Of a DNA stretch of 63,688 bases, positions 5,733-58,545 are shown piece by piece. Position numbers and translations under genes: made by a program. The DNA lies in the IMG/VR virus record IMGVR_UViG_3300027851_000027, positions 1 to 63,688 of that record. One strand, given 5' to 3'. The stretch's first letter is position 1, and the number at the start of each line of letters is the position of its first letter. Origin of the DNA: a virus. Lineage: Duplodnaviria; Caudoviricetes. Below the pieces are notes generated by a model that was given only the letters and a program-made list of their open reading frames with translations, did no database searches and had not been told where the DNA came from.

Positions 5733-7280
5733 CTATTCCCGCAGCAACTCGTTAACCGTCACGGCAATTGCTTGGTTTCCCGGCGTCGTGTAGTGGGTGT
5801 TGTCCGTGCCAAGGAAAACTGCACGAGTGCCCGTCCCGCTACCTGCATTCCCCGTACCATGCAGCCATTTCGTGCGCTGCTTCCACCAATGCGGCCTAGG
5901 ACCAGCGTCCGTTCCCATTGGCCCCTGAGTCGGCGTAAGCGACACCGGGGCATATGCAGCCAGCTCCCAGATCGCGTTATTCACTACAACTCTGGCCCCG
6001 TTCGCCATCAATCCACCCGGATACGCAGATGGTGTGACAGCCTGATCAGCGCCACCAATGGGATCAAGATATTTATCGACGTAGGAATTTCCGTTTACCG
6101 CAGAATAGACCAGTCTCGCAGTGACAAGTGATGCGAGCAACGTCTTGTCTGTGCCGGTCGGTTGCGGTCCGATAACACTTGTGGGGCAATTATGCGCCGC
6201 TCTATATGCGGTGATTGTTGAGGACACTGCTTCGGCGATCCCTGAAAGCCCGTTGTCGTTGATTCCTCCGAATAGCATGTGCTCATCAGGTGCAAACAAT
6301 TCAACGTTCTTGATCCGTGACGCATGGCCATATGTTTTCAGGATTGATGCCCCTCCGTCATTCACATATCCGGTGCCACCATACCCGTTGTTCAGAACGT
6401 CGAACCCGTAACGGACAGCAAGTATGCCTGTAAAAGCGTTGAATGCGTTTGACGAGTTCATCGCAGACCCAGTCACAAAGGAATCACCAGTTATGGCGAC
6501 TTTTCTGGCCTGTCGCTCAGACGGGATGATTGCACCGTTCGCACCACACGCGACTCCGACGAGGCCCAGAACATTGCTCGCATACACAGTGACAAGATTC
6601 GGCCCGTCATCTGGCAAATCGATGTCCAGAGACGTGAAGATGGTGAATCCACCGGATGTGTATGCGACTGGCTCAGCGGTGGCGGGTTTGTCGTTTACAA
6701 AAATCCAATAATGCCGCTCAACAGGATTCCTCGCATAAAACCTGAGTGACAGTTTGTTGCCAAAGACCATTTGTTCAACGCCGATTAGCGCATCTTGTGG
6801 ATTTGCAGTCAGGCAGAAGTGCATATCCGTCGCTGGTGCTATCTCTGTCGCGCAGCCCAGAACCTTACAAGACGTAAGCGGAGAAAACGCCACTGTGAAT
6901 CCTGCCGCTATCGAATTCGCAAGTGTCCTGATCGTTGTGGTTACGCCAGCAACAACTACCGACAGGTCGCGCATCAAAGGATACGGTTGGGGGACTTTCG
7001 GTGTCCTGTCTGCCCCAATCCCCGCCCGCACGCTGGCACGCTGCGCAAGGGTCGGAGCAGCTCCGCCGATCTGCATTGCGCCGGTGGTGGGGTCGAGGGT
7101 GAGGCCGTTCACGACGGCTTGTGAGTCGCCAGCGTCTTCGAACTCCGCGAAGCGCAGCATCTCTGTCGCCACGGCATCATCGAGCACCGTGTCAACCTTG
7201 CCCGGCGTCCAGATGATCTGCGTGCGGTCGAAGAAAGCGTCTTCGGTGGGCTTGGTGCCGATGTACTTGATGTTGCGCAT
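5733..7280 (-). CDS. SGNH/GDSL hydrolase (esterase) fused to a virion-protein-like N-terminal domain
   Basis: Blocks GDSF, GYGGTG, GGIND and DNTH; body visibly lower GC than flanks. Confidence 0.8.
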   Translation of the reverse strand: MRNIKYIGTKPTEDAFFDRTQIIWTPGKVDTVLDDAVATEMLRFAEFEDAGDSQAVVNGLTLDPTTGAMQIGGAAPTLAQRASVRAGIGADRTPKVPQPYPLMRDLSVVVAGVTTTIRTLANSIAAGFTVAFSPLTSCKVLGCATEIAPATDMHFCLTANPQDALIGVEQMVFGNKLSLRFYARNPVERHYWIFVNDKPATAEPVAYTSGGFTIFTSLDIDLPDDGPNLVTVYASNVLGLVGVACGANGAIIPSERQARKVAITGDSFVTGSAMNSSNAFNAFTGILAVRYGFDVLNNGYGGTGYVNDGGASILKTYGHASRIKNVELFAPDEHMLFGGINDNGLSGIAEAVSSTITAYRAAHNCPTSVIGPQPTGTDKTLLASLVTARLVYSAVNGNSYVDKYLDPIGGADQAVTPSAYPGGLMANGARVVVNNAIWELAAYAPVSLTPTQGPMGTDAGPRPHWWKQRTKWLHGTGNAGSGTGTRAVFLGTDNTHYTTPGNQAIAVTVNELLRE

Positions 7281-16540: not shown

Positions 16541-16945
16541 TCAGAACGCGGCGATGCGCTCGGCCAGGACGGAGCTGAGTTGGCGCTGCAGGTTCAACTG
16601 GCGGACCAGGCGGTGCTGTTCGGCGAGGTCGAGCGAGCGGAAGGTGTCCGAGCCGGTGAAGGCGTGCAGGCGATCGATGTTACCTTCCAGATCAAGGCGC
16701 TCGGCGATGACTCGCATCTGGTGCAGCGGCTTTTCAGTTGCATCGAGCACCTTGACGGCGTTCTCTTCAAGGAACGTCATCTTCCTTCCGCTGCGCTTGC
16801 TGCAGACGTGAAGGCGGTGGAACTCCACTCCATCAACGCTGTCATTCTCCACGTCTTGCACAACGAATTTTCCCCATCCTGGCTCTCCTTTGAACTCGAC
16901 GGTATCGCCGACTTCGAACCGGCTGGCTTCGATGGTTTCGCTCAT
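16541..16945 (-). CDS. KOW/SH3-like domain fused to crAss001_48-like helical hairpin; candidate anti-defence protein
   Basis: C-half HQMRVIAER..L...I..L..F....F..L...EQ..L..Q.......VL.ERIAAF. Confidence 0.65.
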   Translation of the reverse strand: MSETIEASRFEVGDTVEFKGEPGWGKFVVQDVENDSVDGVEFHRLHVCSKRSGRKMTFLEENAVKVLDATEKPLHQMRVIAERLDLEGNIDRLHAFTGSDTFRSLDLAEQHRLVRQLNLQRQLSSVLAERIAAF

Positions 16946-16964
16946 GGCTCAGACCTCTGGGTGT

Positions 16965-17005
16965 AAAAAAGCGCCCGGGTCCGGGTGGTCCGGTATCCGG
17001 GCGCT
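16965..17005 (-). terminator. Intrinsic terminator ending the late leader
   Basis: Minus strand agcgcccgg...cccgggcgct followed by T run. Confidence 0.75.
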
Positions 17006-17245
17006 GTGAAGGGCTGCGCGTGAAAAAGCCTGTGAAAGCCACGCAACCAGGAGACTCTGTTCAGGGCAGGCCCGCCACGGCGACCGGGGGATTGGTTACC
17101 GGTGTTGACCGTGGCGGGTTCTGCTGGGGTGCCGGGGGTTTGCGCACCTCGGCGATTGGGCCGATTGGACCCGGCTGGCGCCCAGCCTTGCCTTTCCGCA
17201 TTCCTCTGAGCAAGGGCGGATCAGTTTGTGCTGCTGGGGTTTGAA

Positions 17246-17321
17246 TGGCGGGCCGAGGTGGAATCGAACCACCAACCTTCGGTTTTGGAGACCGACGCTC
17301 TGCCAGTTGAGCTACCGACAC
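17246..17321 (-). tRNA. tRNA-Trp (CCA) with encoded 3' CCA
   Basis: 76 nt; D arm TAGCTCAACTGGCAGAGC, anticodon loop CTCCAAA, T arm GGTGG-TTCGATT-CCACC, G73; U2.C71 mismatch. Confidence 0.93.
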
Positions 17322-17547
17322 ACGATGAATTCGGAATCCTCTGACCCCTACAGATAGACGGGGTTTACGAGGCGGCGGCTGGGGCGTGGTCTTCTGAGCG
17401 AGATCCTCACTCGGCGCCGTTGGCGCTTTGACATCATCCAGCCGGCTGTCACCGAAAGTTGGCGGGCCTGCGATCCTCGCGCGCGCTCGCTTAGGGCTGG
17501 TCGTGGGCGTCGATTGCCACGGTTCAGCTTGCTTTGGCCCAGAAACG

Positions 17548-17572
17548 GGAAAACCCGCACGGGGCGGGCTTC
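17548..17572 (-). terminator. Terminator-like hairpin within late leader
   Basis: Minus strand aagcccgc-cccgt-gcgggtttt. Confidence 0.55.
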
Positions 17573-17781
17573 TGTGATCTACCGGGTTTCGCCTTGCCAG
17601 TGCTGGAGTTTCCCGTGTCCTTCTTCGGGGATTGCTCCCCCGGCTGGCGTCGGCCTGATGGCCTTTCGTGTTATCTGGCTCCGGGCGCTTTCACCCAGAT
17701 GCGTTGTCAGGCTCTACCCTGCTCGGATGGTGGCCGGCTCTGTGGCCCCGACTCGTTGTTTTCGCAGACTACCGAAAAACA

Positions 17782-17894
17782 CCATCGCGACTGCGGGCTG
17801 CCACTGGCCAGTGCGCTACCGACGGTATCCCGGATCTGCCAGTGCCCCGGCATTCACACGTCCCGTTCTCGCTGCCAGCCCGCATGCGTGATGG
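17782..17894 (-). ncRNA. C4-antisense-like multibranch RNA
   Basis: Closing stem ccatcacgcatgcgggctg/cagcccgcagtcgcgatgg enclosing internal hairpins; family assignment from memory. Confidence 0.45.
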
Positions 17895-17997
17895 CCTTCG
17901 TTTGAAGGCGGCTGACCATCGAAGAGGACGGTTTACCGTCATCGCCTGGGGCCAGCTGTCAGTAGCGCGGAACGAATCAAGTGCTACCGGTGGCAGG

Positions 17998-18026
17998 ATT
18001 CTATGCGGTGCTGTTTTTTTGTGCAA
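17998..18026 (-). promoter_or_regulatory. Late promoter (pR'-like)
   Basis: TTGCAC-17 bp-TAGAAT downstream of Q-like gene, facing the late operon. Confidence 0.8.
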
Positions 18027-18336
18027 CTGGTTGTTTCTGCACGTCGCCAACCTCGTCCATCCACATCGCATCGGCTTCCAGGCCTTTGAACTTGTGGCTG
18101 GGTTTGTCTGGTGGCGTCAGGTGAATCCTAGGAAGCCTCTCAGCAGTTTCGTCTGGGATGATCTTGATCCCGAAGATGTTGTTGAACGGGCCGGTGGACT
18201 TTTCATGCCTGAACCTATCGCGCAGTTCGTTGATGTCGTCTGGGTGCATGCGTTGTTCTGTCTGGATCGGCGGCAGGGCGTCCATCGCCCGCTTTGCTTC
18301 GACCATCCGGGCCAGGATTTCGGTCGCGGTGCTCAT
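18001..18336 (-). CDS. Hypothetical protein
   Basis: 111 aa, ATGA-coupled; 3' end overlaps late promoter. Confidence 0.55.
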   Translation of the reverse strand: MSTATEILARMVEAKRAMDALPPIQTEQRMHPDDINELRDRFRHEKSTGPFNNIFGIKIIPDETAERLPRIHLTPPDKPSHKFKGLEADAMWMDEVGDVQKQPVAQKNSTA

Positions 18337-18746
18337 ATTGCAGACCCAGCGAGCGCCCTGGCATCCGCCAGGGCGTTGTGAGGGATGGCCGATGTGGTAG
18401 CGGTGTCCGGGAGGTCGCGCCGCACCTCGAAGGTCATTCGGTCAGGCCCGATCCGATCACCCGGAGCGTACTCCAGAAAGTTGCAGAAGTGCGCGATGTC
18501 CCCGGGCCAGTCCGAAACGATGTGCACGCAATCGAATTGGCGCAGGAAGCTGTCCAACGAAGCGCGCAGGGCGCTATCCCGCTCAGGCTCTTTCCCGAGA
18601 TACGGCATGACGTGCTCTTTCACCCACCAGCCAGGGTCATCGCAAAAGCGCACGCCGTACCACTCGCATCCATCTTCAGCCACCAGTGCCAGAGAAATCA
18701 ATGAGCCTCGGTACTCATTGAACTCGGTGTCTATCCACATTTTCAT
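18333..18746 (-). CDS. DEDDh 3'-5' exonuclease (Rv2179c-like)
   Basis: IDTEF...LISLALV and HNALADAR motifs. Confidence 0.85.
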   Translation of the reverse strand: MKMWIDTEFNEYRGSLISLALVAEDGCEWYGVRFCDDPGWWVKEHVMPYLGKEPERDSALRASLDSFLRQFDCVHIVSDWPGDIAHFCNFLEYAPGDRIGPDRMTFEVRRDLPDTATTSAIPHNALADARALAGSAI

Positions 18747-19318
18747 GCCAACTGCCTCCGAATTTCAATCTCAGCGAAGCTGTACGCGCCGGCCATGGCG
18801 TGCATCAGGTCGGCGGCGAATTCCTTCTGCGTGAAGTCCAGCCCTACGGCGTCCTTGGCCTTCCCAGATCCACCGCAGCGCCGGCAGATGTTCTGAATGC
18901 TGCCATCGTACCCGCCGATCAGGCCGGTGCCGCTGCACGTTTGGCATGTCGGGCTCAGGAACGAACCCAGGCACCCGCCTACGATGGCGGCGATCTGCTT
19001 GTCAGACAGCATCACCCGGCGCTTTGTCGCGCGGTCCAGTGCCCACAGGTGCAGCGCTTCCTTGGTTTCGCGCAGAGTTCGCAGCTCCATCAGGATCAGC
19101 AGCATGCCGGTCAGGTCGTTGTCGGCCGTCCTGCGCACGTCTTGGGCCACGGAGTCGTATTCCTGCATGAGCCTGAGCAGCTTCGGGCCGATGCCGTGCA
19201 CCATGCCTGCGGCTGCGATCATGTCCACATCCCCCTGCCGGTGCTCGCTCATACCGAGGTGACTGGTGTGCGCGGCGCGGGCGTAGCGCTCGGCTGTTGT
19301 GGGTTTGTCGTCGCTCAT
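18743..19318 (-). CDS. Late antiterminator Q-like protein
   Basis: CQTCSGTG...CRRCGGSG zinc motif; near the end of the PR arm before the late promoter. Confidence 0.7.
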   Translation of the reverse strand: MSDDKPTTAERYARAAHTSHLGMSEHRQGDVDMIAAAGMVHGIGPKLLRLMQEYDSVAQDVRRTADNDLTGMLLILMELRTLRETKEALHLWALDRATKRRVMLSDKQIAAIVGGCLGSFLSPTCQTCSGTGLIGGYDGSIQNICRRCGGSGKAKDAVGLDFTQKEFAADLMHAMAGAYSFAEIEIRRQLA

Positions 19319-23261: not shown

Positions 23262-24654
23262 CTACTGGCACGGCCCAACTGTTACCCAAACTTTTATACC
23301 TTGGCCCATCCGGGCACTGGTCTGCTGGCTTCTTTCTCCATGGGATTTGTGTGTGGCCGGGAGAAAATCCTTGGAGTTTTTCGCATTCCTCGGGCGTAAG
23401 GCGGCGCACTTGCATCCCGGCTTGCGGTTGTACGGCGAATGGCGATTTCTCAAAAGCTCGCAAGCAATCCGTCCGGTCTTCACTGATGCCCATGCTGCTG
23501 GCATCGTTGCCGCTCTTGTGCATGTTGAATGCGACGGCTGTAGGGTTTACAGCACACAGTGATGGTCTCAACTCTTCCGAGCTGGCGCACTGCGTAGCAC
23601 TCATGCGACCAGGGAACGCAATCGCAGGCGCATGCGCCCCAGCGGCCAGCGGGTGGCAAGGATCGCCCGCCTTCGGGTTGCTGTAGTTCGCTTTGCTGGT
23701 GATCTGGGTGGTGTCGAAACAGACCGCCTGCACCTCTGCCCGTGCTTCCAGCGTGTACGCATGGTCGGCCTGCACGCCCACTCCATCCGGTCCACTGTTT
23801 GGGTTGGTGCGCAGTGCGCCAGCCTGGATAGCGAACGAAACTGGCACCAGTGGCGTTCCGCGCCCCGTGCCGTCCTCACTGGCGTCAAAGCCCTCGCCGC
23901 GCAGGCTGTGCGCAACATACGGAGCTTCGTGGTTGCAGTTCAGCGTCGGAGCCATGTCGGCACCGATTTCGGCACCGGCCTGACCCGTGGCTACGCAGAT
24001 AGTTTTATCAATCAGATGGCCGGCTCTTGCGTGATCGACATCGCTACCGCCTTGAGTGCTTCTGAGAGTGCCGGCGGTAGATCCTTTCCGCGCTTGTCGG
24101 CTCGGCGCAGGATGCCCTTGCAGGCTGTGGCGCTCAAAAAGAACCGCTGCGGCACTGCGCCAGTCTCCAAGACATCCGACAACGAACACACGGCGGCGGC
24201 GCTGGGCCACTCCAAAGTACTGAGCGTCCAGAACCCGGTAGGCGAACCCATACCCGAGTTGGCCCAGCATCCCGAGGAAGGTTCCAAAATCCCTTCCTCC
24301 GTTGCTGGACAGGACGCCGGGGACGTTCTCCCAAACCAGCCACTTGGGCCGATACTTTGCAGCAATGGCACCGTAGGTAAGCATGAGGTTGCCACGCGGG
24401 TCATCCAGTCCCTTTCGGAGTCCTGCGACGCTGAATGATTGGCAGGGGGTTCCTCCGCAAAGAAGGTCAATTGCATGGTCGGGCCAGTCCTTGAATTTGG
24501 TCATGTCGCCGTGGTTCGGCACATCGGGGTAGTGGTGGGCCAGCACGGCGCTGGGGAAGGGTTCGATTTCGCTGAACGCCACAGGCTTCCACCCGAGCGG
24601 CTTCCATGCGGAACTCGCGGCCTCGATCCCTGAGCAGACGGATAGGAATCTCAT
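23122..24654 (-). CDS. C5-cytosine DNA methyltransferase (alpha chain) with long multi-unit variable region
   Basis: Motifs I (SVCSGIEA), IV (GGTPCQSFS), VI (ENV), VIII (QRRRRVF), RRLTPEECEKLQGF and X (LGNSWAV). Confidence 0.93.
   Translation of the reverse strand: MRFLSVCSGIEAASSAWKPLGWKPVAFSEIEPFPSAVLAHHYPDVPNHGDMTKFKDWPDHAIDLLCGGTPCQSFSVAGLRKGLDDPRGNLMLTYGAIAAKYRPKWLVWENVPGVLSSNGGRDFGTFLGMLGQLGYGFAYRVLDAQYFGVAQRRRRVFVVGCLGDWRSAAAVLFERHSLQGHPAPSRQARKGSTAGTLRSTQGGSDVDHARAGHLIDKTICVATGQAGAEIGADMAPTLNCNHEAPYVAHSLRGEGFDASEDGTGRGTPLVPVSFAIQAGALRTNPNSGPDGVGVQADHAYTLEARAEVQAVCFDTTQITSKANYSNPKAGDPCHPLAAGAHAPAIAFPGRMSATQCASSEELRPSLCAVNPTAVAFNMHKSGNDASSMGISEDRTDCLRAFEKSPFAVQPQAGMQVRRLTPEECEKLQGFSPGHTQIPWRKKPADQCPDGPRYKSLGNSWAVPVARWIGERIALVDSIHSQRQTQATPNAESHTRLFPTNGEHARAPLGS
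24012..24476 (-). CDS. Nested alternative-frame ORF resembling the M.EcoHK31I beta polypeptide
   Basis: SSGCWANSGM...WTLSTLEWPS....CSLSDVLE.....FFLS......ILRRA..RG..LP; AAGGA 11 nt upstream of ATG. Confidence 0.7.
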   Translation of the reverse strand: MQLTFFAEEPPANHSASQDSERDWMTRVATSCLPTVPLLQSIGPSGWFGRTSPASCPATEEGILEPSSGCWANSGMGSPTGFWTLSTLEWPSAAAVCSLSDVLETGAVPQRFFLSATACKGILRRADKRGKDLPPALSEALKAVAMSITQEPAI

Positions 24655-25139
24655 GCGGCCACCTCTTCCCGCTTCGGCGCGCGGCGCAAGTCGATCAGCT
24701 TCCCGGTGCTCGGGTCGATGGCCTTTTCAGGGATGTCGTGCTCCATCGACACCCCCCAAAAATAGATCCACTCGATCAGGTCTGCCATATCGCGCCCGCT
24801 CATTTCAGAGGTCTTGAGGAACACGATGTCGATGCCCTTTCCATCCAGGGCCGGCAGGTACTCGATGGCCTCTCCTTTGGCGCGCGACCATGCGGACACC
24901 GTGAGCCTCTTCCATTCATCGATCGATCGGTATTCGCCGGCCCATGGCACGTTCTTTGACAGCCATCCCAGCATTGCGTGAAGGCGCGCGCTGTGTTCTG
25001 CGCTGCGCTTGGCCGGGCGCACCACCAGCTCCAGCTTGTGGCCTGCGATGTTCATCGCCTTGCACCACTCTTTCACCGGGCCAGCAAGAACCTTGTGGCT
25101 CTCGACCCAGTTCGGCGTCAGGATGAAGGTCTTGTTCAT
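24651..25139 (-). CDS. ninB: NinB/Orf-family recombination protein
   Basis: KRS..HSARLHAML...EWK...TSEMS...MADLIEWI. Confidence 0.8.
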   Translation of the reverse strand: MNKTFILTPNWVESHKVLAGPVKEWCKAMNIAGHKLELVVRPAKRSAEHSARLHAMLGWLSKNVPWAGEYRSIDEWKRLTVSAWSRAKGEAIEYLPALDGKGIDIVFLKTSEMSGRDMADLIEWIYFWGVSMEHDIPEKAIDPSTGKLIDLRRAPKREEVAA

Positions 25140-30720: not shown

Positions 30721-31181
30721 AGACGTGCTCCGGGTTTGTGGTTTTTGTGAAGAGCGGCCTTGATCCGGTAGCCCAGATCGGTGGCGCCCAGGTTGATCGG
30801 CTGCCACAGGAATTCGTGGCTTGCCGGGATGTCCATCACGGCCGGCCGGTGCCACCCAGATCCGCAATCGATCAGGTGGCACGTTTCGCCGTGAACGAAA
30901 CAAAGCTGAAGCTCTTTCGGCCTGGCCTGCGAAATGCCGAACAACACCGCGTCAACGCGGTCGAACGGGGTCTTCGAGTTGGCCCAGACCACCACCTGCA
31001 GGTTGACCAGCATTCGCCAGTCCATGCGGTCGGCTGGCATGTTGTCGCGCACGAAAAGCGTCGTGCCTTCTGCGACGTTGCCCATCATCGAAACCGTCAC
31101 CGGCTCGTCGGGAGACAGGCCGTTTTGCCGTGCTTCAAGCAGGGAACGGGCGTTGCTGGCGAACCATGGGCGGGCGTTCAT
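30717..31181 (-). CDS. Hypothetical replication-module protein
   Basis: Coupled between initiator and helicase. Confidence 0.65.
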   Translation of the reverse strand: MNARPWFASNARSLLEARQNGLSPDEPVTVSMMGNVAEGTTLFVRDNMPADRMDWRMLVNLQVVVWANSKTPFDRVDAVLFGISQARPKELQLCFVHGETCHLIDCGSGWHRPAVMDIPASHEFLWQPINLGATDLGYRIKAALHKNHKPGARL

Positions 31182-31954
31182 GCTGCAGCCCTCGTCCAAT
31201 CGGATGCGCCATCGGCGAATGAATCGTCGTCTTGCCACCGGCCCTCGTTGAGCCACGTCGAAGGGTGCGGGATGTACTGGCCACCATCCTTCAGCCAAGC
31301 CTGTGAACTGGCCTGATGGCGGATGGCCTCGACCATTTTTCCCAGCAGTTCGTCGTCGGGCCGGCGCTTGTCGAAAGCCTTTCGGGCTGCGTCCTTCCCA
31401 ACCTTCCGTGGGTATGCAGTCCAAAATTCTCCGAACCTACGGTCAGCCCCCATCGGGGGTTGGGGGGTATCCGAAGATGAAGATGAAGAAGAAGAAGAAG
31501 GGGGGGGATATTCAAAGCCCGGAAGGGGGGTTGAAAGGGGGGTTTCAAAACCCCCCTTCTGGACCTTTGGACGGCCACCTTTCGACCCAGATTCAGCACC
31601 CTTCGCACCATGCTCTGCACCAGCCTTACCACCGTTTGCGCGAGCGTTCCTGATCTGCTCATCACGCACCATGCGCTTGTTGAAAATGATCCCGGCGTCA
31701 GTGGTTCTAGCTACGCCGTTCTCGATCAATTCGGACAGCATCTTGCGCACCGTGGCGACGTTCCCACCGATCTGATTGACGATCTGCTCGGGTGTCATGG
31801 GGCGCCCGTTTGTGGTCAAGTGCCCGTATGGCTCGCAGTCGTGCATCACGCAAATCAGGTCCATCCACAAACCTCGTGCGGCGAACGAGCAGGACCTCAG
31901 TTGAACGTCCTTGCGCCAGTCGGATGGGTAGAACTGGAATGCTGGGCGTTTCAT
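31178..31954 (-). CDS. Replication initiator protein
   Basis: PAFQFYPSDW N-terminus; F.EFW.AYPRKVGK...YIPHP.TWLN..RW.D C-terminus. Confidence 0.85.
   Translation of the reverse strand: MKRPAFQFYPSDWRKDVQLRSCSFAARGLWMDLICVMHDCEPYGHLTTNGRPMTPEQIVNQIGGNVATVRKMLSELIENGVARTTDAGIIFNKRMVRDEQIRNARANGGKAGAEHGAKGAESGSKGGRPKVQKGGFETPLSTPLPGFEYPPPSSSSSSSSSDTPQPPMGADRRFGEFWTAYPRKVGKDAARKAFDKRRPDDELLGKMVEAIRHQASSQAWLKDGGQYIPHPSTWLNEGRWQDDDSFADGASDWTRAAA
31450..31560. other. Candidate replication origin within initiator gene
   Basis: Repeated aaggggggtt units, inverted gggggg-tttcaaaa-cccccc and (GAA)n purine tract in the linker-coding region. Confidence 0.55.
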
Positions 31955-32247
31955 GACAGCCCCCGAGCAAGTTCCATCGCCCGCACCATCTCAGGCGAGC
32001 GCAGCGCCACCAGGCGGCGTACCTCATCGAAGGCCTCGCGTGCCTTCTGGCTGTGCCCGGCGTTGACGTGCTTCTCAACGATGGCGCCAGCGGCCAGGAT
32101 GGCGGTCTCCAGCTCATCAGGCGTGAGCGTCGATACATCCTGTTTCTGTATGTTCGATGGCGAACTGACAGACGCTGTTGAGGAAATCAGAGTACGTTGG
32201 TCGGAACTGCGTCCGTCCGATTTTTCGGGCTGAAAACGGGCGTGCAT
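31951..32247 (-). CDS. Hypothetical protein (start uncertain)
   Basis: Stop coupled to initiator start. Confidence 0.5.
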   Translation of the reverse strand: MHARFQPEKSDGRSSDQRTLISSTASVSSPSNIQKQDVSTLTPDELETAILAAGAIVEKHVNAGHSQKAREAFDEVRRLVALRSPEMVRAMELARGLS

Positions 32248-32552
32248 CAGATTCCGCCCCGCTTGATCTGGTCGCCGCGGCTGCTGTTTCGCGGTCCGAT
32301 GGTGATCGACTGCGGAGCGTTGTTCAGCAGCTTCTTGCCGCGCTTGGACAGGCCTTTGAGGGTGGCGTGACCGAAGCCTGTACCGCGAGCCTTCTGGGCT
32401 TCCTTGGAGTGATCTGCAGCGTTCTGCTTGCGTGCCAGCGTGGCCTTTCCGGCCTCGACCGGATCGTTTGCATAGACAGAGTTCTTCGGGATCGTGAATC
32501 CGTTGTTGGTGGACTTCACGATGCTTGTTCCGGGCCAGTAGATGGGGTTCAT
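32247..32552 (-). CDS. Basic hypothetical protein
   Basis: Start MNPIYW coupled to upstream stop. Confidence 0.6.
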   Translation of the reverse strand: MNPIYWPGTSIVKSTNNGFTIPKNSVYANDPVEAGKATLARKQNAADHSKEAQKARGTGFGHATLKGLSKRGKKLLNNAPQSITIGPRNSSRGDQIKRGGI

Positions 32553-32797
32553 GCTGCAAGTCCCGACAAACCGCACACCCCGACCATGCGCTGTTGTTCC
32601 ATAGTGAGCACATGGCCCACACCGTACAAACTCGCACTCAGCAGGCGCTCGATGAAATCGCTCTCGGTCATTCCGAGTTCGTGACATCGGCGTGCCAGAT
32701 CCAGTTTCAGTTCATCGGATACGCGGGACTCGACTCGGGCGCTGCGCTTGGCTCCGGTCAGGCTGCGTGCGTACTGGGTTTCTGTGTTGTTGCTCAT
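32549..32797 (-). CDS. Ribbon-helix-helix DNA-binding protein at the cII position
   Basis: RVESRVSDELK..L...C...GMTESDFIERLL. Confidence 0.65.
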   Translation of the reverse strand: MSNNTETQYARSLTGAKRSARVESRVSDELKLDLARRCHELGMTESDFIERLLSASLYGVGHVLTMEQQRMVGVCGLSGLAA

Positions 32798-46952: not shown

Positions 46953-49900
46953 TCAGGGCGCAGCAGCCAGCGACTTCCTCAGCTTCTCCCCCAGCGTAGC
47001 GTCCCGCCGCGGTGCGTCAATCTCTGCCGCTGCCTCGTTCAGATCGCGCATGACCGCGGTGCGCTCTTCGTCTAGGGCCTTGATGGCTTCGCTGTCGCCC
47101 ACGGTTTCCATCGCCTCTTTGTTGAGTTCGCGCAGATCCTTGACGACCCGGTTCTTCTCCTTCTTCAGCATCGCCTCGGGCTTGTCGGCCTCGATGCGGT
47201 CGGCCGCGTCCAGATCACCCTTCTTCTCGGCAGCACGGATCAGCTTTTCCGCCTTCTCGATGGCGGTCAGGTTGTCGTAGTACCGGCTGCGCTGCACCGA
47301 TGCGTCGTCCACCTCGCCATAGAAGCGGCCGAACACCGGGAGTCCGGTCGGCTTGGTGTCTTCGCCTTTGGACATGGCGATGCTGGTGTTCACGGTCTTC
47401 TCAATTTCTCGCAGAAGGCCACCGCCGACCACCTGGGCCAGGTAGCGCACCATCTCCGGCGTCGGGCTGACCCGGCCGGCCTCGTACTCGTCGCCGCCGC
47501 TGACCTTGTTCAGGATGCGGCTGATTTCTAGGTAGGCCTGACCGGTTGGCGCGCGCAGCGTTCCTTCCCGGGCGCGCTCGAAGCCTGGTCGCGGATCGTT
47601 GCCGTAGCCCTCGCGCTCGATGGCGGCGCCGGCAAAGTTCTTGTTCGACAGAACCTCGATCACCGGGTCGATCACGGTCGGCGCCACGGTGCGCAGCGCG
47701 CCATCGGCGGTGAAGATGTTGCCGCCACCCAGTGGGTTGAACGCGCCGGCAATCTCTCCAACGGCTGCGAAGCCCTTGGTGATCGCATCCTTGCCGCCGT
47801 CCATCGTGAGTTCGGCCAGCACCCGCCCGGTGTTCGGCAGGACGTGCAGGCCCAGCGGCAGCGGGATTGTGAAGTACCGCTTCTTGCCTTCGTCGTCGGT
47901 GCCCAGCGGGATGATGATCGCACGCGACTTCACGAACTCCGGGATTTCGTCGTCATCGTAGCCAGCGGCCAGCAGCATCACCGCCTGCAGCACGCCCAGC
48001 GACACACCGCCTGCGATGATCTTGGCGCCATCCGGTCCGGCCAGGGTCTGCAGCGTGCGCGCGGAGCCCTGAACCGATGCGTTGAAGAAGGCGTACAGCG
48101 GCCCCAGCTCCCGGCCCATGCGACCTTTGCGGTTGAAGTCGACCGTCAGCTCGCGCCCAAGGCGCGCGGCTTCCGGCCGGCTCATGCCTTCCTGCAGGGC
48201 CTCGCGGTACGCGGCCAGGCGGACGGCGTTTTCCAAGGTCGTGTTGAAGATGTCCAGCGCACCCAGCACCTTTCCGGCCACCTTGTCCGTGGTCAGCTTG
48301 CCGGCCTTCTCCATCGCCTTGAGTTCGGCTTCCAGTGCCTTGGCGCGGTCGTTGGCGTCCTTGAACATCTCGCGGTAGCCGGTCTGCCCGCCGTCCTGCT
48401 GGAACTGGCGGAACAGCCGGCCCCACTCGCCGGACTTCTTGCCGGACAGCTCCAGACCGATGCCCTTGAGTGCACCGGGTGTCATGGCCAGGACCTTCAA
48501 GGTCTTGCCGCGCAGCTTGGTCGAGCTCAGGTTGATCGCGCCGCCCAGCGTGTCGCGCGTCAGGTTCACCAGACCGAAGGCCGGGTTGTACTGCGTGTTC
48601 ACGCTGGCCAGCCAGCGCGTCGTCTTGCCGACGATGCTCCCGGCGATGTCGAACTTCGTCAGGCCGTCCATGTTCTTCAGGTTCTCGGCCATGCGCAGCC
48701 CGCGCGGGTCGTTGACGTTGACCATCAGAACCCGGTCTTCGCCGTTCACCTTGAGCACGATGGCGCCTGGCAGGCTCTTGTACATCGGGTTCGGCCGGCT
48801 GACCACGCGGCCCAGCGTCGGGTCCACGGTCTTGATCGTCGGAACGCCCATCATCCCGGCTTCTGCCACGGTCGGGTCAACGCCCATGCGTTGCAATTCC
48901 CTGCCGATGGCTTCCGGTCTCATGCCGGGTTTGATCGTGGTCCAGAAGTCGGGGTTCGGGTTCGTCAGGGCCAGGCCGTACAGCGCCACCGCCACGCGGT
49001 TTTTCTCCGCCCGGGTGATCGCGGCTTCCCGCTGCATCAGGACGTGCGCCAGGATGTTCGTCGCCTGCTTGGTCGAGCCCACGGCGCGCTTGCTGCTGCC
49101 ACCGCGCACGCTCATGCCTGAACCAGTCGGGTGCTGGTTGCCGTTCTCGGCCTCGTCGCGGAACAGCGGGACATAGCTCTTGTATGCGCCGGTCCATGCA
49201 TCGATCGTTTCCTGCTTCTCCAGACCTTCGTCCACCAGCAGTTTCGTCGTGCCCTGGGTGATCGCGTCGACCCGCTTGGCCATGGCAGTCAGAACCATGC
49301 GCTTGCCTTCGGACAGCGCGGCGATGTGCTGCTTCGCTGCCTCGGTGGTCATCAGCACGCCCTTGCTGTTCTTGCCGGCGCCGCCGTCTGGCAGATCAGG
49401 GTTCACCTTGGCGATCTGCTTGTTCCGTTCCTCGGCGTGGCGCGCGTGCAGGTAGTCGGCCAGATCGACCATGGTCACGTTGTTGCGTGCCATGGCGTCC
49501 AGCAGCGGCTTGGCCTCGTCGTCAAGGAACTGCTTGGCGCGTGTCGCAACCCGGCCCGGGTACAGCGTCTCCTGCAGGCGGGCGTCGAACTTCTCTGGGA
49601 TGGTATTGGCCTTGGTGATGGCTTCCTGCACCCGCTTGAGGTCAATGCGGCCGTCCTGCAGCTCATAGACGATGTTGTCCAGTCGTGTTTCCTGCGGGGC
49701 ATCCCAGAACCCGGGCTGGAACATCTCGGCCTGTGCCGGCTTCGCGGCGCCTGCGGCCTTCTCGGCTTCGATGGATGCCGGGGCCTTGGCGGTGCGGCTG
49801 AACCGGATGTCTGGGTTCTGTGGGTCGAAGGCTCCGCGGTTCTTCGTAGCCGACTTCACCTGTGTTGCATCCTTGAAGATGAAGCCCGTGAAACTTCCGT

Positions 49901-52900
49901 CGCTCTCTGGGAGGACCACTCCGTCATAGCCCATGCGCTCAAGCTCATCAACGCCGTACTTGTCGTACTCTTTCCATCCGGCCGGGTTCTCGATCTTTGC
50001 GTAAAGCTCCATGATGTTCTTGGAGCCTTGAGCGCCAGCATCACCGGACTCGATGGATGCGCGATCAGACGTGAACCAGAACAGGCCTTGCGCTCCCTTC
50101 TTGAAGTTCACCTTGTTGAACGCTCCGTCCGTGCCGTGGTACACAACTTGAGGATTCCCGTCAGCGTCAACCACTTTCGAGTCGCCGAACCATGCACGGA
50201 AGGCTGGGGTCTGGGTCTGGTCTTCGCGCATGAACACCGGCTCTTTCGCTGCGCGCGCACTGTCCGCCTTCTTCCCGACTTCAAGGAACCGCTGCGCATT
50301 CACCAGCGCGCCCTGCAGCTCGGCATGGGTCATCTTCACGTCGATGCCGATGGAGCGCAGGAACTCGACCACCTTCGCATAGACCGACTTCACGAACCAG
50401 AAGCCTGGGCGGAAGTTGCCGTCTGCGTCCACAGCCTGCTCGACCACCTTCGCGGCAATCTCGTCGGCTTCCTGCATCTCGGACAGGTTGAACTTTCCGG
50501 CGTCGTCAACGTAGGCTGCGCGCACGTCCTTGCGGATCGCGGCCAACGGCTTGTTGCCGGTCTTCAGGGCGAGCTGGATGTTCCCCATGAACTTCTTCCA
50601 GTCGTCTTTCCCCAGCATCTCTCGCAGGCCGTGGTGAGCGATGGCCTCATGGGTCAGCACCTCCATGGCCTTGGCCTTGTCGCGGATGTTCTGCGCCACG
50701 AGGTAGACCTTGCCGCCGAAATACACGCCGTGCACGTCGCCCGGGGCAGGCATGGGAAGGTCTTTCGTCGTCGCCACCACCGTGACGTTCGGGCCGTTCT
50801 CCCAGCGCTTGAGCACCGGGGCGATGGCCTTCTGCAGATCGGCGGTCTTCATGCCACGCTGCATCGGCGTGGTCATCTGGCGGAAGAGTTCGGCGGTCAG
50901 CGGTCGGCTGTAGAAGATCCGTTCGTCTTTGGAGGTCGATGCAAGTTGCGCTCGTTGGCGAACAAGTTGGTCCAGTAGGCTTTCACCCGCACCGGCCCGC
51001 CCTGATCCATCGCCACCCGTTCCCCGTCCGCGTAGAAGGGAACGGAACACAGCGCCTCGCGCAATCGTTCGCCACCCTGCTCCAGCAAAAGCCGCTCGGC
51101 GTCCAGCTCCTCGTCGGTCGGCAATGGGGCCTCCGGAAAAAAGATCCTTGACCCCTGCCGGATCAAGTCGTTTTTTGTCATCGGCTGAGAAGGTGCCGGA
51201 TTCTGGGTCATAGGTGAGTTGAGCAGCTTCGGGATATGCGCTGTCCAGCGCCTTGACGTTCAGCTCAACCAACCGCTGGATGTTGCCCACGTCATCGCCG
51301 TAGACCCATTTTAGGGCCGGAATCCCCAAGCCGGTAGCCCCGTCCGTCTGCCTCGGGTGCGGCGCCAGGTGGCGTGTCGTGCCGAACTTGAGTGCGCTCG
51401 ACAGCATGTGCTCGGCGCGGCGGCGCATGGCCTCATCCGACAAGCCGGCCGGGTCACCGATGAACATGCGTCCGGTGTTGTGAGCGAACGTGGCGGCGAT
51501 GTTGTAGACCCGGGCACCGTTTTGACCTGGCTTCAGGTTCGACACGTCGATCCACACGTCTTCCATGTCGTCCGGTACATCCTCAGGGTTTTCACCCGGG
51601 CGGCCGGTTTCCCATGTCGTGTTGTTGTCGGCGTCAGTCTCTGCGCCGTAGACGCTTCGCGGGCCGGACTTGCGCACCGTGATCCTGGCCGGCGTTCCGT
51701 CCGGCATGGTCAGGGTGTACATCGTCTCGTTGCCCGGCAAATCGGTCTTGCGGACCTTGATTTCCGGGTCGTGATCGGCCGTGATGCCTTCGATGGTGTC
51801 CTTGTCGGACTTCGGCATCGAATACAGGTCATCGGTTTCGGAGAGGATGGCCAGGGGGTCGGCGCTGCGGGAGAACATCGGCTTAGTACCGCCGTCGCGC
51901 CCATCCTCGACCGTCAGCGTGAAGCTGTCGGCGCCGGACTCGCTCTCGCGCTTGACCTGGGCGCGCGCATCCAACTCATCAGCGCGGCTTACACGTTCCT
52001 GCTGGGCTTCGATGTCGGCGCGCGTCGGTGATTTCAGCGCTGCATCCTCGCGGCGCTTGAGCATCGCAGCCATCTCGCCAAAATTCGGAGCGTCATCCTC
52101 CAGTCGCTGGGTGATCGAGAACATCACGCCTTCCTGCAATCCGGACTTCTCCAAATGGTCCAGCAGAGCGGTTCGCGTGATGTCTCCGTTCATGTAGTCC
52201 ACGACTTGGCGCATGGCCTTCGTCTGGTTTTCCGGCTGTCCTTTCAGCGGTGTGCCGTACTGCCATCGGTCCTGTCCGGTCAGGCGCTCTCGGCGCTCTT
52301 TCCTGCGGTCGCCTAGCGTCAGGTAGTCCACCTGTTTTTGCAGCATGGCATCGGCGATGGCCTTCGCCTCGGCCAGCGTCTTGGCGCTGCTGTCGTTTGA
52401 TCCAGTGCCTTTGCGGATGCCGCCCTTCTGGTAGGACCCGACGTAGAAATTCCCGTCCGTGGTCCGTTGCGGCATGATGGACATTTCAAGTCGCCCGCCG
52501 TCTTGCAGTTTGGCGATGCGCTTGAACAGATCCTTGGCGCCTTCGATGCCCTTCTCTGCCGTCCAGTCGTCGCCAAGCTCCTGCAGAGCAAGACTGCGGC
52601 GGGTCTTGGTGTCTAAGATGGTTGGGCTGTAAGCGGATTGCTCGGCAGGTTCCAGCAGATCGCGCGCCTTCTGCGCCTGGGTCCGACCAACAACCACGCC
52701 GGTAGCGCTCGGGAGAATGGACTTGGCCGGGATTCCGGCAGCGGTCAGGCGTTCGCGCAGCGCCTTCGTGTCGCCCCTGACGGATAGGGTTTCGTCCGGG
52801 CGGTCGGTCAGGCTTTCGCCGGTTCCTTCGCGCGCTTGGCCTTGTTCGCCATCATCTTGGCCAGGATCGCCACGGCCTGCGGGCTTGGCTGCTTCTGCGA

Positions 52901-57681: not shown

Positions 57682-58545
57682 TTATCGAGCTGCGGCTCTT
57701 CCGGCTGCTTGTCCAGCCAAACCGAACATGGCTCCAGATGCCTGACCCCATTCATCAGCCTCTCTCTGCTGCGAGGAAATCAGCAGGCGGTTCGCTCCGC
57801 TCATGCTGTTTTGGTAATCCTGCAGCGCGTTGCCCATCAACTGCGTCGATTGGTTGGCTGCATTGACCGGGGCATAGGCAGCGCTCACGGCGCCATTTCC
57901 TGCCTGTGTGGCGGTGCTTGCTGCTGTGGCCTGAGCGCTGGCCAATCCGCGCCCGAGGCTGGCGGCATCCATCTTGCGGGCAAATCCTTGGGTTTCGATC
58001 TTGTCGCGCGCCGCGGTTGCGGCAGACCCTTTGGCCGATGCTGCGGCAAGGCTCATCTGGTTGTTCATGGCCAGTGAATTGCCGCTGCTCGGGTTCACGC
58101 CCATGCGCTGCTGATTACGCACCATGGCCTGGCGCTCGCCGTCTATCTGCAGACCGACATCGGCAACCGCCTTGCCGGCTTCAGCCTCGCGACGTGCTGG
58201 CGTGTCGTACTCGTTTGCGTTCTTGACGATGGAGTTTTCCAGCGGCCAGAACACCGACTTGTTGCGCGTGTGGTACTCGCCGGAAATCTGGCGCTGCTGA
58301 TCCATCAGAGCAACCTGCGAGTTCGCGACCTTGCCGGCGATGGCGTTGGCTTGCCGCTGAAGGCCTGCGCTCTGAGCGTCCCTTTCGCGGTAGTAATCCA
58401 GCGTCTCGCGCGCCAACTCCCTGTCTTGGTCAGCCCCTGCAGCCGCTGTTTGCTGTGCATTCTTGCTGGCTTTGCTGGCCTTGTTCGAGGAATAGAGACC
58501 TCCAACAACACTTACAGCAGCCACACCAACGTTCCACCATGCCAT
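57682..58545 (-). CDS. Internal virion/DNA pilot-like protein
   Basis: Hydrophobic Gly/Ala N-terminus, A/Q/S-rich helices, RMGVNPSSG. Confidence 0.7.
   Translation of the reverse strand: MAWWNVGVAAVSVVGGLYSSNKASKASKNAQQTAAAGADQDRELARETLDYYRERDAQSAGLQRQANAIAGKVANSQVALMDQQRQISGEYHTRNKSVFWPLENSIVKNANEYDTPARREAEAGKAVADVGLQIDGERQAMVRNQQRMGVNPSSGNSLAMNNQMSLAAASAKGSAATAARDKIETQGFARKMDAASLGRGLASAQATAASTATQAGNGAVSAAYAPVNAANQSTQLMGNALQDYQNSMSGANRLLISSQQREADEWGQASGAMFGLAGQAAGRAAAR

What the first reader, a model, noticed from the sequence alone, without database searches (positions are those of the whole stretch)
16960..17991. About 1 kb of densely folded non-coding RNA with an embedded tRNA at the head of the late operon
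Seen (minus strand from the TTGCAC/TAGAAT promoter): gtagc..gctac; gctggcc..ggtcagc enclosing gacgg-taaa-ccgtc; gccttc-aaac-gaaggc; a 113-nt multibranch fold; gggga-GCAA-tcccc and other GAAA loops; ggctgg..ccagcc enclosing two hairpins; tRNA-Trp; cccgccacgg..ccgtggcggg; and two terminators. It is by far the longest gene-free stretch of an otherwise ATGA-packed genome. Known: large phage ncRNAs such as GOLLD and ROOL are tRNA-associated, and HK022 put RNAs antiterminate. Inference: a polycistronic ncRNA cluster, probably transcribed even in lysogens up to the first terminator and released by tRNA processing, possibly containing undescribed motifs.
Basis: partly seen in the sequence, partly recalled or inferred. 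Interest (0 to 1): 0.7.

Follow-up and report, generated by a model that had tools for sequence, protein, structure and literature searches.

The report
Mosaic late-operon leader carrying tRNA-Trp
The 1-kb gene-free stretch is the untranslated head of a temperate phage's virion-gene operon, made of a promoter, a conserved hairpin leader, swappable non-coding inserts, a tRNA gene and a closing terminator cassette, and not one large folded RNA.

Summary
Window 16946-18000 is non-coding and is the longest gene-free stretch of the record. It holds a sigma-70-like promoter, many hairpins, one tRNA-Trp and U-tailed terminators, all on the minus strand.

Folding beats shuffled controls only at the two ends. 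These are the 103-nt three-hairpin leader (z -4.0) and the 3' hairpin/terminator cassette (z -2.6 and -4.7). The roughly 700 nt between them fold no better than shuffles (z +0.2 to -1.75). Rfam finds only the tRNA.

Relatives show a patchwork. A sibling Hydrogenophaga prophage keeps the promoter, leader, first terminator and last terminator. It carries a two-piece tmRNA and a T5orf172-domain ORF where this phage has tRNA-Trp. Four metagenomes show at least seven breakpoints.

A strong terminator ends 19 nt before the first late gene, in 4 of 4 relatives and ahead of three different genes. Late expression must therefore pass it.

Best reading: a lambda/Stx-type antiterminated late leader that serves as a cargo slot for RNA genes. 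No Q-family gene was found, and no RNA data exist. Interest is moderate to low.

The parts
18001..18336 (-). Last gene before the gap (111 aa, no family). Its final ~35 codons belong to the block conserved with the sibling prophage.
   Evidence: ORF list. No PHROG, Pfam or NCBIfam hit. 57% aa identity to the sibling over residues 39-109. DNA of 18107-17895 is 93.5% identical to the sibling.
17998..18026 (-). Sigma-70-like late promoter. -35 at 18021-18026, 17-nt spacer, -10 at 17998-18003 overlapping the stop codon.
   Evidence: The scan found one site, scored with the register shifted by 1 nt (9 of 12 matches). In the sibling both hexamer positions are kept while the spacer differs. This is a consensus match only; no transcript data.
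17894..17989 (-). Conserved leader of three hairpins: 17960-17989, 17911-17956, 17894-17909.
   Evidence: z -4.03, 0 of 200 shuffles, MFE frequency 0.42. 4 differences to the sibling in 103 nt. 5 of 5 variable positions are unpaired or pair-compatible, and two of them extend helices in the sibling.
17570..17892 (-). About 325 nt of orphan non-coding insert between leader and first terminator (modules B, C, D). Includes the 'multibranch fold' and the GCAA/GAAA-loop hairpins.
   Evidence: Absent in the sibling, where the first terminator follows the leader directly. Replaced or partly replaced in runs X2, X3 and X4. z -0.48, -0.72 and -1.75. No Rfam hit. No match in 131 + 401 genomes.
17541..17572 (-). 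First intrinsic terminator, T1: GC stem, 5-nt loop, U-rich tail.
   Evidence: Sequence and fold. The 20-nt core is identical to the sibling's post-leader terminator except for 2 loop bases. Runs X2 and X3 carry those same two loop changes.
17322..17540 (-). Non-coding modules F and G upstream of the tRNA. Includes the 17376-17444 stem that encloses two hairpins.
   Evidence: z +0.19 and -0.90. 17468-17535 is replaced by 13 or 7 nt in X3 and X4. 17322-17467 is kept in X2, X3 and X4, with changes only in hairpin loops.
17246..17321 (-). tRNA-Trp (anticodon CCA), 3' CCA encoded.
   Evidence: ARAGORN. RF00005 at 58.2 bits with one non-standard pair, U2-C71, against 73.3 bits for the host tRNA-Trp. 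D arm, anticodon arm, variable and T loops are identical to the tRNA-Trp of Hydrogenophaga aromaticivorans, the sibling prophage's host (this window's own host is not known). Two T-stem pairs are changed on both sides and the acceptor stem differs.
17176..17248 (-). Segment directly 3' of the tRNA, shared with the segment directly 3' of the sibling's tmRNA.
   Evidence: 81% identity over 73 nt. Present in X2, X3 and X4 contigs. Function unknown.
17066..17124 (-). Hairpin J: a truncated copy of a long inverted repeat.
   Evidence: z -2.59. Metagenome contig L039 has a perfect 23-bp stem (z -11.7). The window keeps the outer 3' arm but not its 5' partner. The breakpoint at ~17129 also appears in X1, and X4 has a 252-nt insertion at 17057/17058.
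17012..17048 (-). Hairpin T2: 9-bp outer stem with a nested 4-bp hairpin followed by U5. Not a canonical terminator.
   Evidence: Fold. In L039 two changes turn U-G pairs into U-A pairs. One X2 change breaks an inner pair.
16964..17005 (-). Intrinsic terminator T3: 9-bp GC stem with a nested hairpin, then U6. It ends 19 nt before the first late start codon.
   Evidence: z -4.67 together with T2. Conserved in 4 of 4 sequences (window, L002, L039, L040), upstream of three different first coding sequences.
16541..16945 (-). First late gene (134 aa, crAss001_48-related C-terminal domain), followed by terS, terL and portal.
   Evidence: PF21825 at 52 bits. terS PF03592, terL phrog_2, portal PF16510, capsid PF13252.

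Best explanation
The gap is the untranslated leader of the late (packaging and virion) operon of a temperate Hydrogenophaga-type phage. It is built like the lambda/Stx-phage pR'-tR' control region, but it is about 1 kb long and is used as a cargo slot.

Read on the minus strand, the parts are:
- a sigma-70-type promoter overlapping the stop codon of the last early gene;
- a conserved, stably folded three-hairpin leader;
- a ~325-nt insert;
- a first intrinsic terminator, T1, about 450 nt from the predicted start;
- more filler and a tRNA-Trp gene;
- a truncated long hairpin;
- a conserved hairpin plus a strong terminator, T3, ending 19 nt before the first late start codon.

Shown:
- the parts and their order;
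- the lack of coding potential;
- that only the two ends fold better than chance;
- that the interior is exchanged piecewise among relatives, with tRNA-Trp here and a two-piece tmRNA plus a T5orf172-domain ORF in the sibling.

Inferred:
- Without a phage factor, transcripts from the promoter stop at T1 or T3.
- During lytic growth an unidentified antiterminator lets RNA polymerase read through into the late genes.
- The tRNA is cut out of that read-through transcript by the host's tRNA-processing enzymes.
- The interior modules are passengers, some of which may be small RNAs. They are not domains of one large structured RNA.
For: Position between early genes and packaging genes.

Promoter-like site, 1 found against 0.3 expected. 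Both hexamers are kept in the sibling while the spacer varies.

Non-coding by codon-position GC. 0 family hits in the 14 of 25 frames scanned.

Leader z -4.03 and terminator cassette z -4.67, each 0 of 200 shuffles. The sibling's leader plus T1 scores z -4.79.

T3 is conserved in 4 of 4 relatives ahead of three different first genes, and leaves no room for a promoter.

The T1 core is shared with the sibling, where it follows the leader directly.

Patchwork: the sibling shares only 18107-17895, 17248-17176 and 17060-16501. Metagenome contigs show joints at about 17997, 17889/17893, 17786 (two runs), 17676, 17558/17568, 17535/17536, 17467/17475 and 17057/17058.

The sibling slot holds a permuted tmRNA (RF01850 93.6 bits, RF04321 96.5 bits, ARAGORN) and a MUG113/T5orf172 ORF.

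Of 15 variable positions, 11 are unpaired, 3 keep a pair and 1 breaks one.

Known analogue, from passages of PMC7547250: the Stx-phage pR' is constitutively active and is terminated at tR' 258 nt downstream, giving an sRNA. tRNA genes lie between tR' and the late genes.
Against: No antiterminator was identified. PF03589 and PF06530 give no six-frame match in the window at E<=1, and the six upstream ORFs have no Pfam or NCBIfam family above cut-off.

The promoter and terminators are sequence predictions only. The terminator scan flagged neither T1 nor T3; I call them from stem-plus-U-tract by eye and from the folds.

Run X2 seems to join ~17997 directly or indirectly to 17786 ('between: not known'). 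The leader may therefore be dispensable in some relatives.

High identity of the conserved blocks could reflect recent recombination and not selection.

The tRNA has a U2-C71 mismatch and scores 15 bits below the host copy.
Confidence: 0.6

Rival explanations
1. A polycistronic cluster of several independent, functional small RNAs. Each interior module would be a selected RNA gene, released by tRNA processing and terminators.
For: Modules recur nearly unchanged in contigs of different studies. The 6 interior substitutions fall in predicted loops (5) or keep a pair (1). Module D plus T1 looks like hairpins followed by a terminator. The StxS precedent shows that terminated late leaders can evolve into sRNAs (PMC7547250, passages).
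Against: Interior modules fold no better than shuffles: 12 to 108 of 200 shuffles fold as well. No Rfam family. No relatives in 131 + 401 genomes or in IMG/VR. Modules are freely deleted or replaced among close relatives. The sample of substitutions is tiny. No internal promoter-like site.
Confidence: 0.2
2. Mostly non-functional filler. On this view the stretch holds scars of repeated illegitimate or homologous recombination at the early/late junction around a captured host tRNA. Only the promoter and terminators have a role.
For: At least seven breakpoints among six relatives. Hairpin J is a half-lost inverted repeat. Interior z-scores match those of coding DNA. The tRNA core is identical to the host tRNA-Trp.
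Against: The rest of the genome is tightly packed, so 1 kb of filler would be unusual. Substitutions avoid predicted stems: 14 of 15 are non-disruptive. The tRNA T stem has two compensatory pairs, which argues for a working tRNA.
Confidence: 0.15
3. One large ornate structured RNA of the GOLLD/ROOL kind that spans most of the gap.
For: Length, absence of ORFs, an adjacent tRNA, and many GNRA-type loops. The whole 674-nt upstream part scores z -2.11 on the minus strand against -0.77 on the plus strand, from 20 shuffles each.
Against: No Rfam hit at E<=10. The z-signal comes from the leader alone. The interior is cut and swapped in pieces among close relatives, and is missing altogether in the sibling. 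A single tertiary fold would not survive that.
Confidence: 0.03
4. A DNA-level element such as a packaging (cos/pac) site or a recombination site just upstream of terS, with the long inverted repeat as its core.
For: A perfect 23-bp inverted repeat in L039. It lies upstream of terS. Two metagenome contigs start in or at this repeat. Breakpoints cluster around it.
Against: The window's copy is truncated, yet CheckV rates the record complete. Contig starts at inverted repeats are a common assembly artefact. X1 and X4 contigs run through the site. This would not explain the promoter, the tRNA or the U-tailed terminators.
Confidence: 0.05

Closest known systems
Lambdoid and Stx-phage late control region (Q, pR', tR'; 6S RNA and StxS sRNA)
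   Same: A promoter directly after the last early gene. A short structured leader ending in an intrinsic terminator. Further terminators before the late genes. tRNA genes between the first terminator and the late genes in Stx phages (PMC7547250, passages; PMC6266700, passages).
   Different: No Q-family gene was found. The distance to the first terminator is about 450 nt here (about 135 nt in the sibling), against 258 nt for StxS. The whole leader is about 1 kb. The late genes that follow are packaging genes, not lysis or toxin genes. There is no experimental evidence of any kind.
GOLLD and ROOL large phage-associated ncRNAs (association with tRNAs recalled, not checked in a paper here)
   Same: A long non-coding stretch in a phage next to a tRNA gene.
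   Different: No match to any Rfam model except tRNA at E<=10. That both families are in Rfam is my recollection. The interior is not conserved as a unit and does not fold better than shuffles.
HK022 put RNA (cis-acting antiterminator RNA; recalled, no paper read here)
   Same: Stable stem-loops directly downstream of a promoter, followed by terminators, with no recognisable protein antiterminator.
   Different: Three hairpins, not two. No sequence or model comparison was possible. put acts on early operons. A constitutive, factor-free antiterminator on a late operon would be lethal in a lysogen unless the promoter itself were regulated.
Phage-encoded two-piece tmRNA (for example OM43 phage Melnitz)
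   Same: The sibling prophage carries a permuted tmRNA at the same slot. PMC9004378 (passages) reports 53 two-piece forms among 133 unique phage tmRNA structures.
   Different: This concerns the sibling, not this window, which has tRNA-Trp instead. In Melnitz the gene lies after an early promoter; here it lies in the late leader.

Membership tests
tRNA (Rfam RF00005) | Cloverleaf scoring above the gathering score, with an anticodon loop | tested here: met
   58.2 bits against a gathering score of 29. ARAGORN calls tRNA-Trp CCA. One non-standard pair, U2-C71. The T stem is compensated relative to the host copy.
GOLLD / ROOL large ncRNAs | Match to the family covariance model | tested here: not met
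   cmscan of 16800-18150 at E<=10 with permissive filters gave tRNA plus two chance-level hits only. That the library contains both families is recalled.
GOLLD / ROOL large ncRNAs | Conserved multi-domain fold kept as one unit among relatives | tested here: not met
   The interior is absent in the sibling and is cut at 7 or more points among metagenome contigs.
Lambda-type Q antitermination cassette | Promoter immediately downstream of the last early or regulator gene | tested here: met
   One promoter-like site at 17998-18026, with both hexamers conserved in the sibling. Prediction only.
Lambda-type Q antitermination cassette | Intrinsic terminator(s) between that promoter and the first late gene | tested here: met
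   T1 at 17541-17572 and T3 at 16964-17005, by stem plus U tract. T3 is conserved in 4 of 4 relatives. The scan did not flag them: its loop limit is 8 nt for T3, and T1's tail is interrupted.
Lambda-type Q antitermination cassette | A Q-family antiterminator gene (Pfam PF06530 or PF03589) | tested here: not met
   0 six-frame matches at E<=1 in the whole window. No hit for the six upstream ORFs. The only lead is for the 191-aa zinc-finger protein, where one protein-atlas neighbour cluster has PF03589 on 16% of its members. Foldseek gave nothing at E<=0.001.
Lambda-type Q antitermination cassette | Short terminated transcript in lysogens and read-through after induction | not testable with these tools
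   No RNA run was listed among the 22 runs.
HK022 put RNA | Two-stem-loop RNA that makes RNA polymerase terminator-resistant in cis | not tested
   I know of no model in the libraries used, and no put sequence was fetched. Only the general resemblance (promoter-proximal stable hairpins) is noted.
StxS-type sRNA from a terminated late leader | Stable 3' fragment with terminator, chaperone binding, and base-pairing targets | not testable with these tools
   Needs RNA data. The precedent was read in passages of PMC7547250.

The most novel reading that the evidence does not exclude
The late promoter is constitutively active, as in lambda and Stx phages. Lysogens would then continuously make a ~450-nt RNA consisting of the conserved leader, a swappable ~325-nt payload (17570-17892) and T1. 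On this reading the payload slot is a general way for this phage group to deliver different regulatory RNAs to the host, a modular and larger version of StxS. A bolder sub-variant is that the three-hairpin leader itself is a protein-independent antitermination element.
Probability: 0.2. Interest if true: 0.6.

Novelty: new variant of a known kind. Interest (0 to 1): 0.35.

Why it matters
If the reading holds, the late-operon leader of these freshwater and soil Comamonadaceae-type phages is a recombination hot spot for translation-related RNA genes and orphan non-coding inserts. The RNA genes are tRNA-Trp in one phage and a two-piece tmRNA in its sibling. They are swapped in and out between a fixed promoter/leader and a fixed terminator cassette.

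That gives a concrete, testable case for two questions:
- How prophages acquire and express RNA cargo.
- Whether terminated late leaders commonly become host-directed small RNAs, as proposed for StxS.

It also flags a phage group with lambda-like late-control architecture but no recognisable Q protein. As it stands, this is an ordinary kind of region with an unusually long and patchy layout.

Tried and rejected
**Searches for relatives of the interior**
- Phage GenBank collection, blastn: 220 records matched, all through the tRNA only, and 0 covered 80% or more of the query.
- 131 Hydrogenophaga genomes: 109 matched, all through the host tRNA-Trp except the sibling host G001. Six matches were not listed.
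- 401 sampled family genomes: 55 had short 20-60-nt hits, best E 3e-5, mostly on the terminator.
- The 3' module: 1 of 131 and 1 of 401 genomes, G001 both times.
- IMG/VR: 8 scans found the sibling contig or nothing. One search was a pattern I miscounted by one base, so its zero means nothing.
- Genome contigs found 1 locus. Metagenome contigs found 2 short contigs.

**Expression**
- No RNA holder was listed among the 22 runs.

**Covariation**
- Not possible. The contigs of runs X1-X4 can be laid on the window but not fetched. This includes a 'same length, diverged' copy of 17786-17889 in X3.

**Self-similarity**
- No second copy of any module in the window.

**Antiterminator hunt**
- Pfam, NCBIfam and PHROGs on the upstream ORFs.
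- PDB sequence search: best E 1.6.
- AlphaFold model of the zinc-finger protein (pLDDT 67.5) with Foldseek against the PDB: best E 0.45.
- Protein atlas: leads only.

**Other**
- Weak Rfam hits in the sibling (int-alpA 26.4 against 35.8 bits; Trp_leader and isrK at E 0.5-0.7) are below threshold and were not used.
- Earlier-scan notes for this genome: none.
- Supplementary files of the papers were not seen.

Full report
**Setting.** The window is a 63.7-kb IMG/VR virus record that CheckV rates complete. On the minus strand, early genes run into the gap. They include NinB (24651-25139), a C5 methyltransferase, a helicase-methylase, an RNase H-like protein (18333-18746) and a 111-aa orphan (18001-18336). 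After the gap come a crAss001_48-domain gene (16541-16945), terS, terL, a P22-type portal and the capsid gene. The gap 16946-18000 therefore sits at the early/late junction.

The closest relative is a prophage of Hydrogenophaga aromaticivorans D2P1 (L004, the same element as IMG/VR contig L002). Its first late protein is 96% identical to the window's.

**Observation.** The listed elements are present.

The gap is non-coding:
- Eight flanking genes show GC2 of 0.36-0.49 and GC3 of 0.70-0.86. Eleven ORFs in the gap show GC2 of 0.51-0.68 and GC3 of 0.45-0.72.
- Of 25 stop-to-stop frames of 35 aa or more, I scanned the 14 that lie mostly inside the gap. None matched PHROGs or Pfam at E<=0.01.

It is also the longest gene-free stretch. 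The bigger 'gaps' from my crude gene caller are filled by long ORFs that its filter missed: 5733-7280, 752-2197, 57682-58545 and 31178-32637.

**Is it densely folded beyond chance?** Only at the ends. The table gives z-scores per module, each against 200 dinucleotide shuffles.

| Module | Window coordinates | z | Shuffles folding as well (of 200) |
|---|---|---|---|
| Leader | 17893-17995 | -4.03 | 0 |
| B ('multibranch') | 17786-17892 | -0.48 | 58 |
| C | 17676-17785 | -0.72 | 46 |
| D | 17570-17675 | -1.75 | 12 |
| T1 | 17536-17580 | -1.72 | 11 |
| F | 17468-17535 | +0.19 | 108 |
| G | 17322-17467 | -0.90 | 35 |
| tRNA | 17246-17321 | -0.90 | 32 |
| I | 17131-17245 | -0.87 | 34 |
| Hairpin J | 17045-17135 | -2.59 | 3 |
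| T2/T3 | 16960-17062 | -4.67 | 0 |

A sliding 120-nt scan gave a mean z of -0.94 for 24 gap windows against -0.34 for 86 flanking coding windows (one-sided Mann-Whitney p 0.02). The windows overlap and are not independent, and the signal sits at the two ends. The true tRNA also scores only -0.90, so this test has little power to exclude real RNAs. It does remove the claim that the hairpin density is itself remarkable in 63% G+C DNA.

**Known families.** Rfam at gathering thresholds finds only the tRNA in the whole window. At E<=10 on 16800-18150 it adds two chance-level hits.

**Comparison with relatives.** The sibling shares only three blocks with the window:
- 18107-17895, at 93.5% identity: the end of the upstream gene, the promoter and the leader.
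- 17248-17176, at 81%: directly 3' of the tRNA.
- 17060-16501, at 94.7%: T2, T3 and the first late gene.

In the sibling the leader is followed at once by a terminator. That terminator's 20-nt core equals the window's T1 except for two loop bases. The window's 17570-17892 is therefore an insert between leader and T1.

Further on, the sibling has about 410 nt of unrelated non-coding sequence and another terminator. It then has a permuted two-piece tmRNA (RF01850 93.6 bits, RF04321 96.5 bits, ARAGORN) exactly where the window has tRNA-Trp. This is followed by the shared 73-nt segment, then a MUG113/T5orf172-domain ORF (28 and 27.2 bits, above the cut-offs), then T2/T3.

Two metagenome contigs keep hairpin J, T2 and T3 almost unchanged. 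Different genes follow: two extra ORFs in L039, and a different N-terminus in L040.

Contigs from four metagenome runs of four different studies were laid on the window. They show joints at about 17997, 17889/17893, 17786 (two runs), 17676, 17558/17568, 17535/17536 and 17467/17475, plus a 252-nt insertion at 17057/17058. No readable collection holds the interior.

**Weak evidence for RNA-level constraint.** I compiled 15 variable positions within 16960-17995. Fourteen come from table 3 and one. I left out indels and 16957/16958. Against module-wise MFE structures, 11 are unpaired, 3 keep a pair and 1 breaks one. The unpaired fractions of the modules are 0.35-0.53.
- In the leader, two sibling changes lengthen helices.
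- In T2 of L039, two U-G pairs become U-A pairs.
- In T1, the only changes are in the loop.

The numbers are small.

**The tRNA.** Relative to the tRNA-Trp of H. aromaticivorans (the sibling's host), the D arm, anticodon arm and both loops are identical. Two T-stem pairs are changed on both sides. The acceptor stem is different and contains U2-C71. The phage copy scores 58.2 bits against 73.3 for the host copy. The compensated T stem argues for a working tRNA, while the mismatch leaves some doubt.

**Mechanism.** T3 is a 9-bp GC stem with U6 that ends 19 nt before the start codon. It is conserved in 4 of 4 relatives ahead of three different genes. Late transcripts must therefore cross it, and before it T1. 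This is the architecture of lambdoid late control. Passages of PMC7547250 describe a constitutively active pR', termination at tR' 258 nt downstream yielding the sRNA StxS, Q-dependent read-through, and tRNA genes downstream of tR'.

I therefore infer antitermination-dependent late expression here. The regulator is unknown:
- PF03589 and PF06530 are absent in six frames.
- The upstream ORFs match no family.
- A model of the 191-aa CxxCxGxG zinc-finger protein (pLDDT 67.5) found no PDB fold.
- One protein-atlas neighbour cluster carrying PF03589 on 16% of its members is only a lead.

**Verdict.** This is a real, non-coding, regulatory and cargo-bearing late leader. It is a variant of a known kind. 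It is not a GOLLD/ROOL-like RNA, and it is not shown to be a set of functional small RNAs.

Three earlier AI notes on other genomes reached similar readings of late leaders. They are not independent evidence.

Noticed in passing
L002:2798-3127 (same element as G001:C11:1007999-1008290): The sibling prophage carries a permuted two-piece tmRNA with a 16-residue tag ending in AA. It is the only match to the beta two-piece tmRNA model above cut-off in that Hydrogenophaga genome. The prophage tmRNA therefore appears to be of a different type from the host's own, which I did not locate.
   Followed up: partly
L002:3341-3875: A MUG113/T5orf172-domain ORF (145 aa, above the Pfam cut-offs) sits inside the sibling's late leader. 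A sub-threshold int-alpA RNA hit precedes it (26.4 against 35.8 bits). It looks like a small mobile passenger.
   Followed up: partly
L039:1-72 and window 17066-17129: A perfect 23-bp inverted repeat (z -11.7) lies upstream of the terminator cassette in a metagenome relative. The window keeps only a 10-bp core plus the orphan outer 3' arm, so a recombination breakpoint lies inside the hairpin. It could be an RNase III site or a DNA-level site; this was not tested.
   Followed up: partly
window 18743-19318 (-): A 191-aa protein with two CxxCxGxG-type zinc-knuckle motifs is conserved in 15 metagenomic homologues, all unnamed. It is a possible late regulator, but the only support is a weak protein-atlas lead.
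   Followed up: partly
window 17246-17321 (-): The phage tRNA-Trp has a U2-C71 mismatch and an acceptor stem unlike the host's, while its anticodon arm is identical. Whether this alters charging or sensitivity to tRNA-targeting enzymes is unknown.
   Followed up: no
window 46953-56111 (-): A single 3052-aa ORF with a coding signature, presumably a giant virion or injection protein. The minus-strand late genes appear to continue across the ends of the record, so the record looks circularly permuted.
   Followed up: no
window 5733-7280 (-): A 515-aa ORF in a low-G+C island (0.52 against about 0.62) within the tail region. It may be an exchanged host-recognition gene.
   Followed up: no
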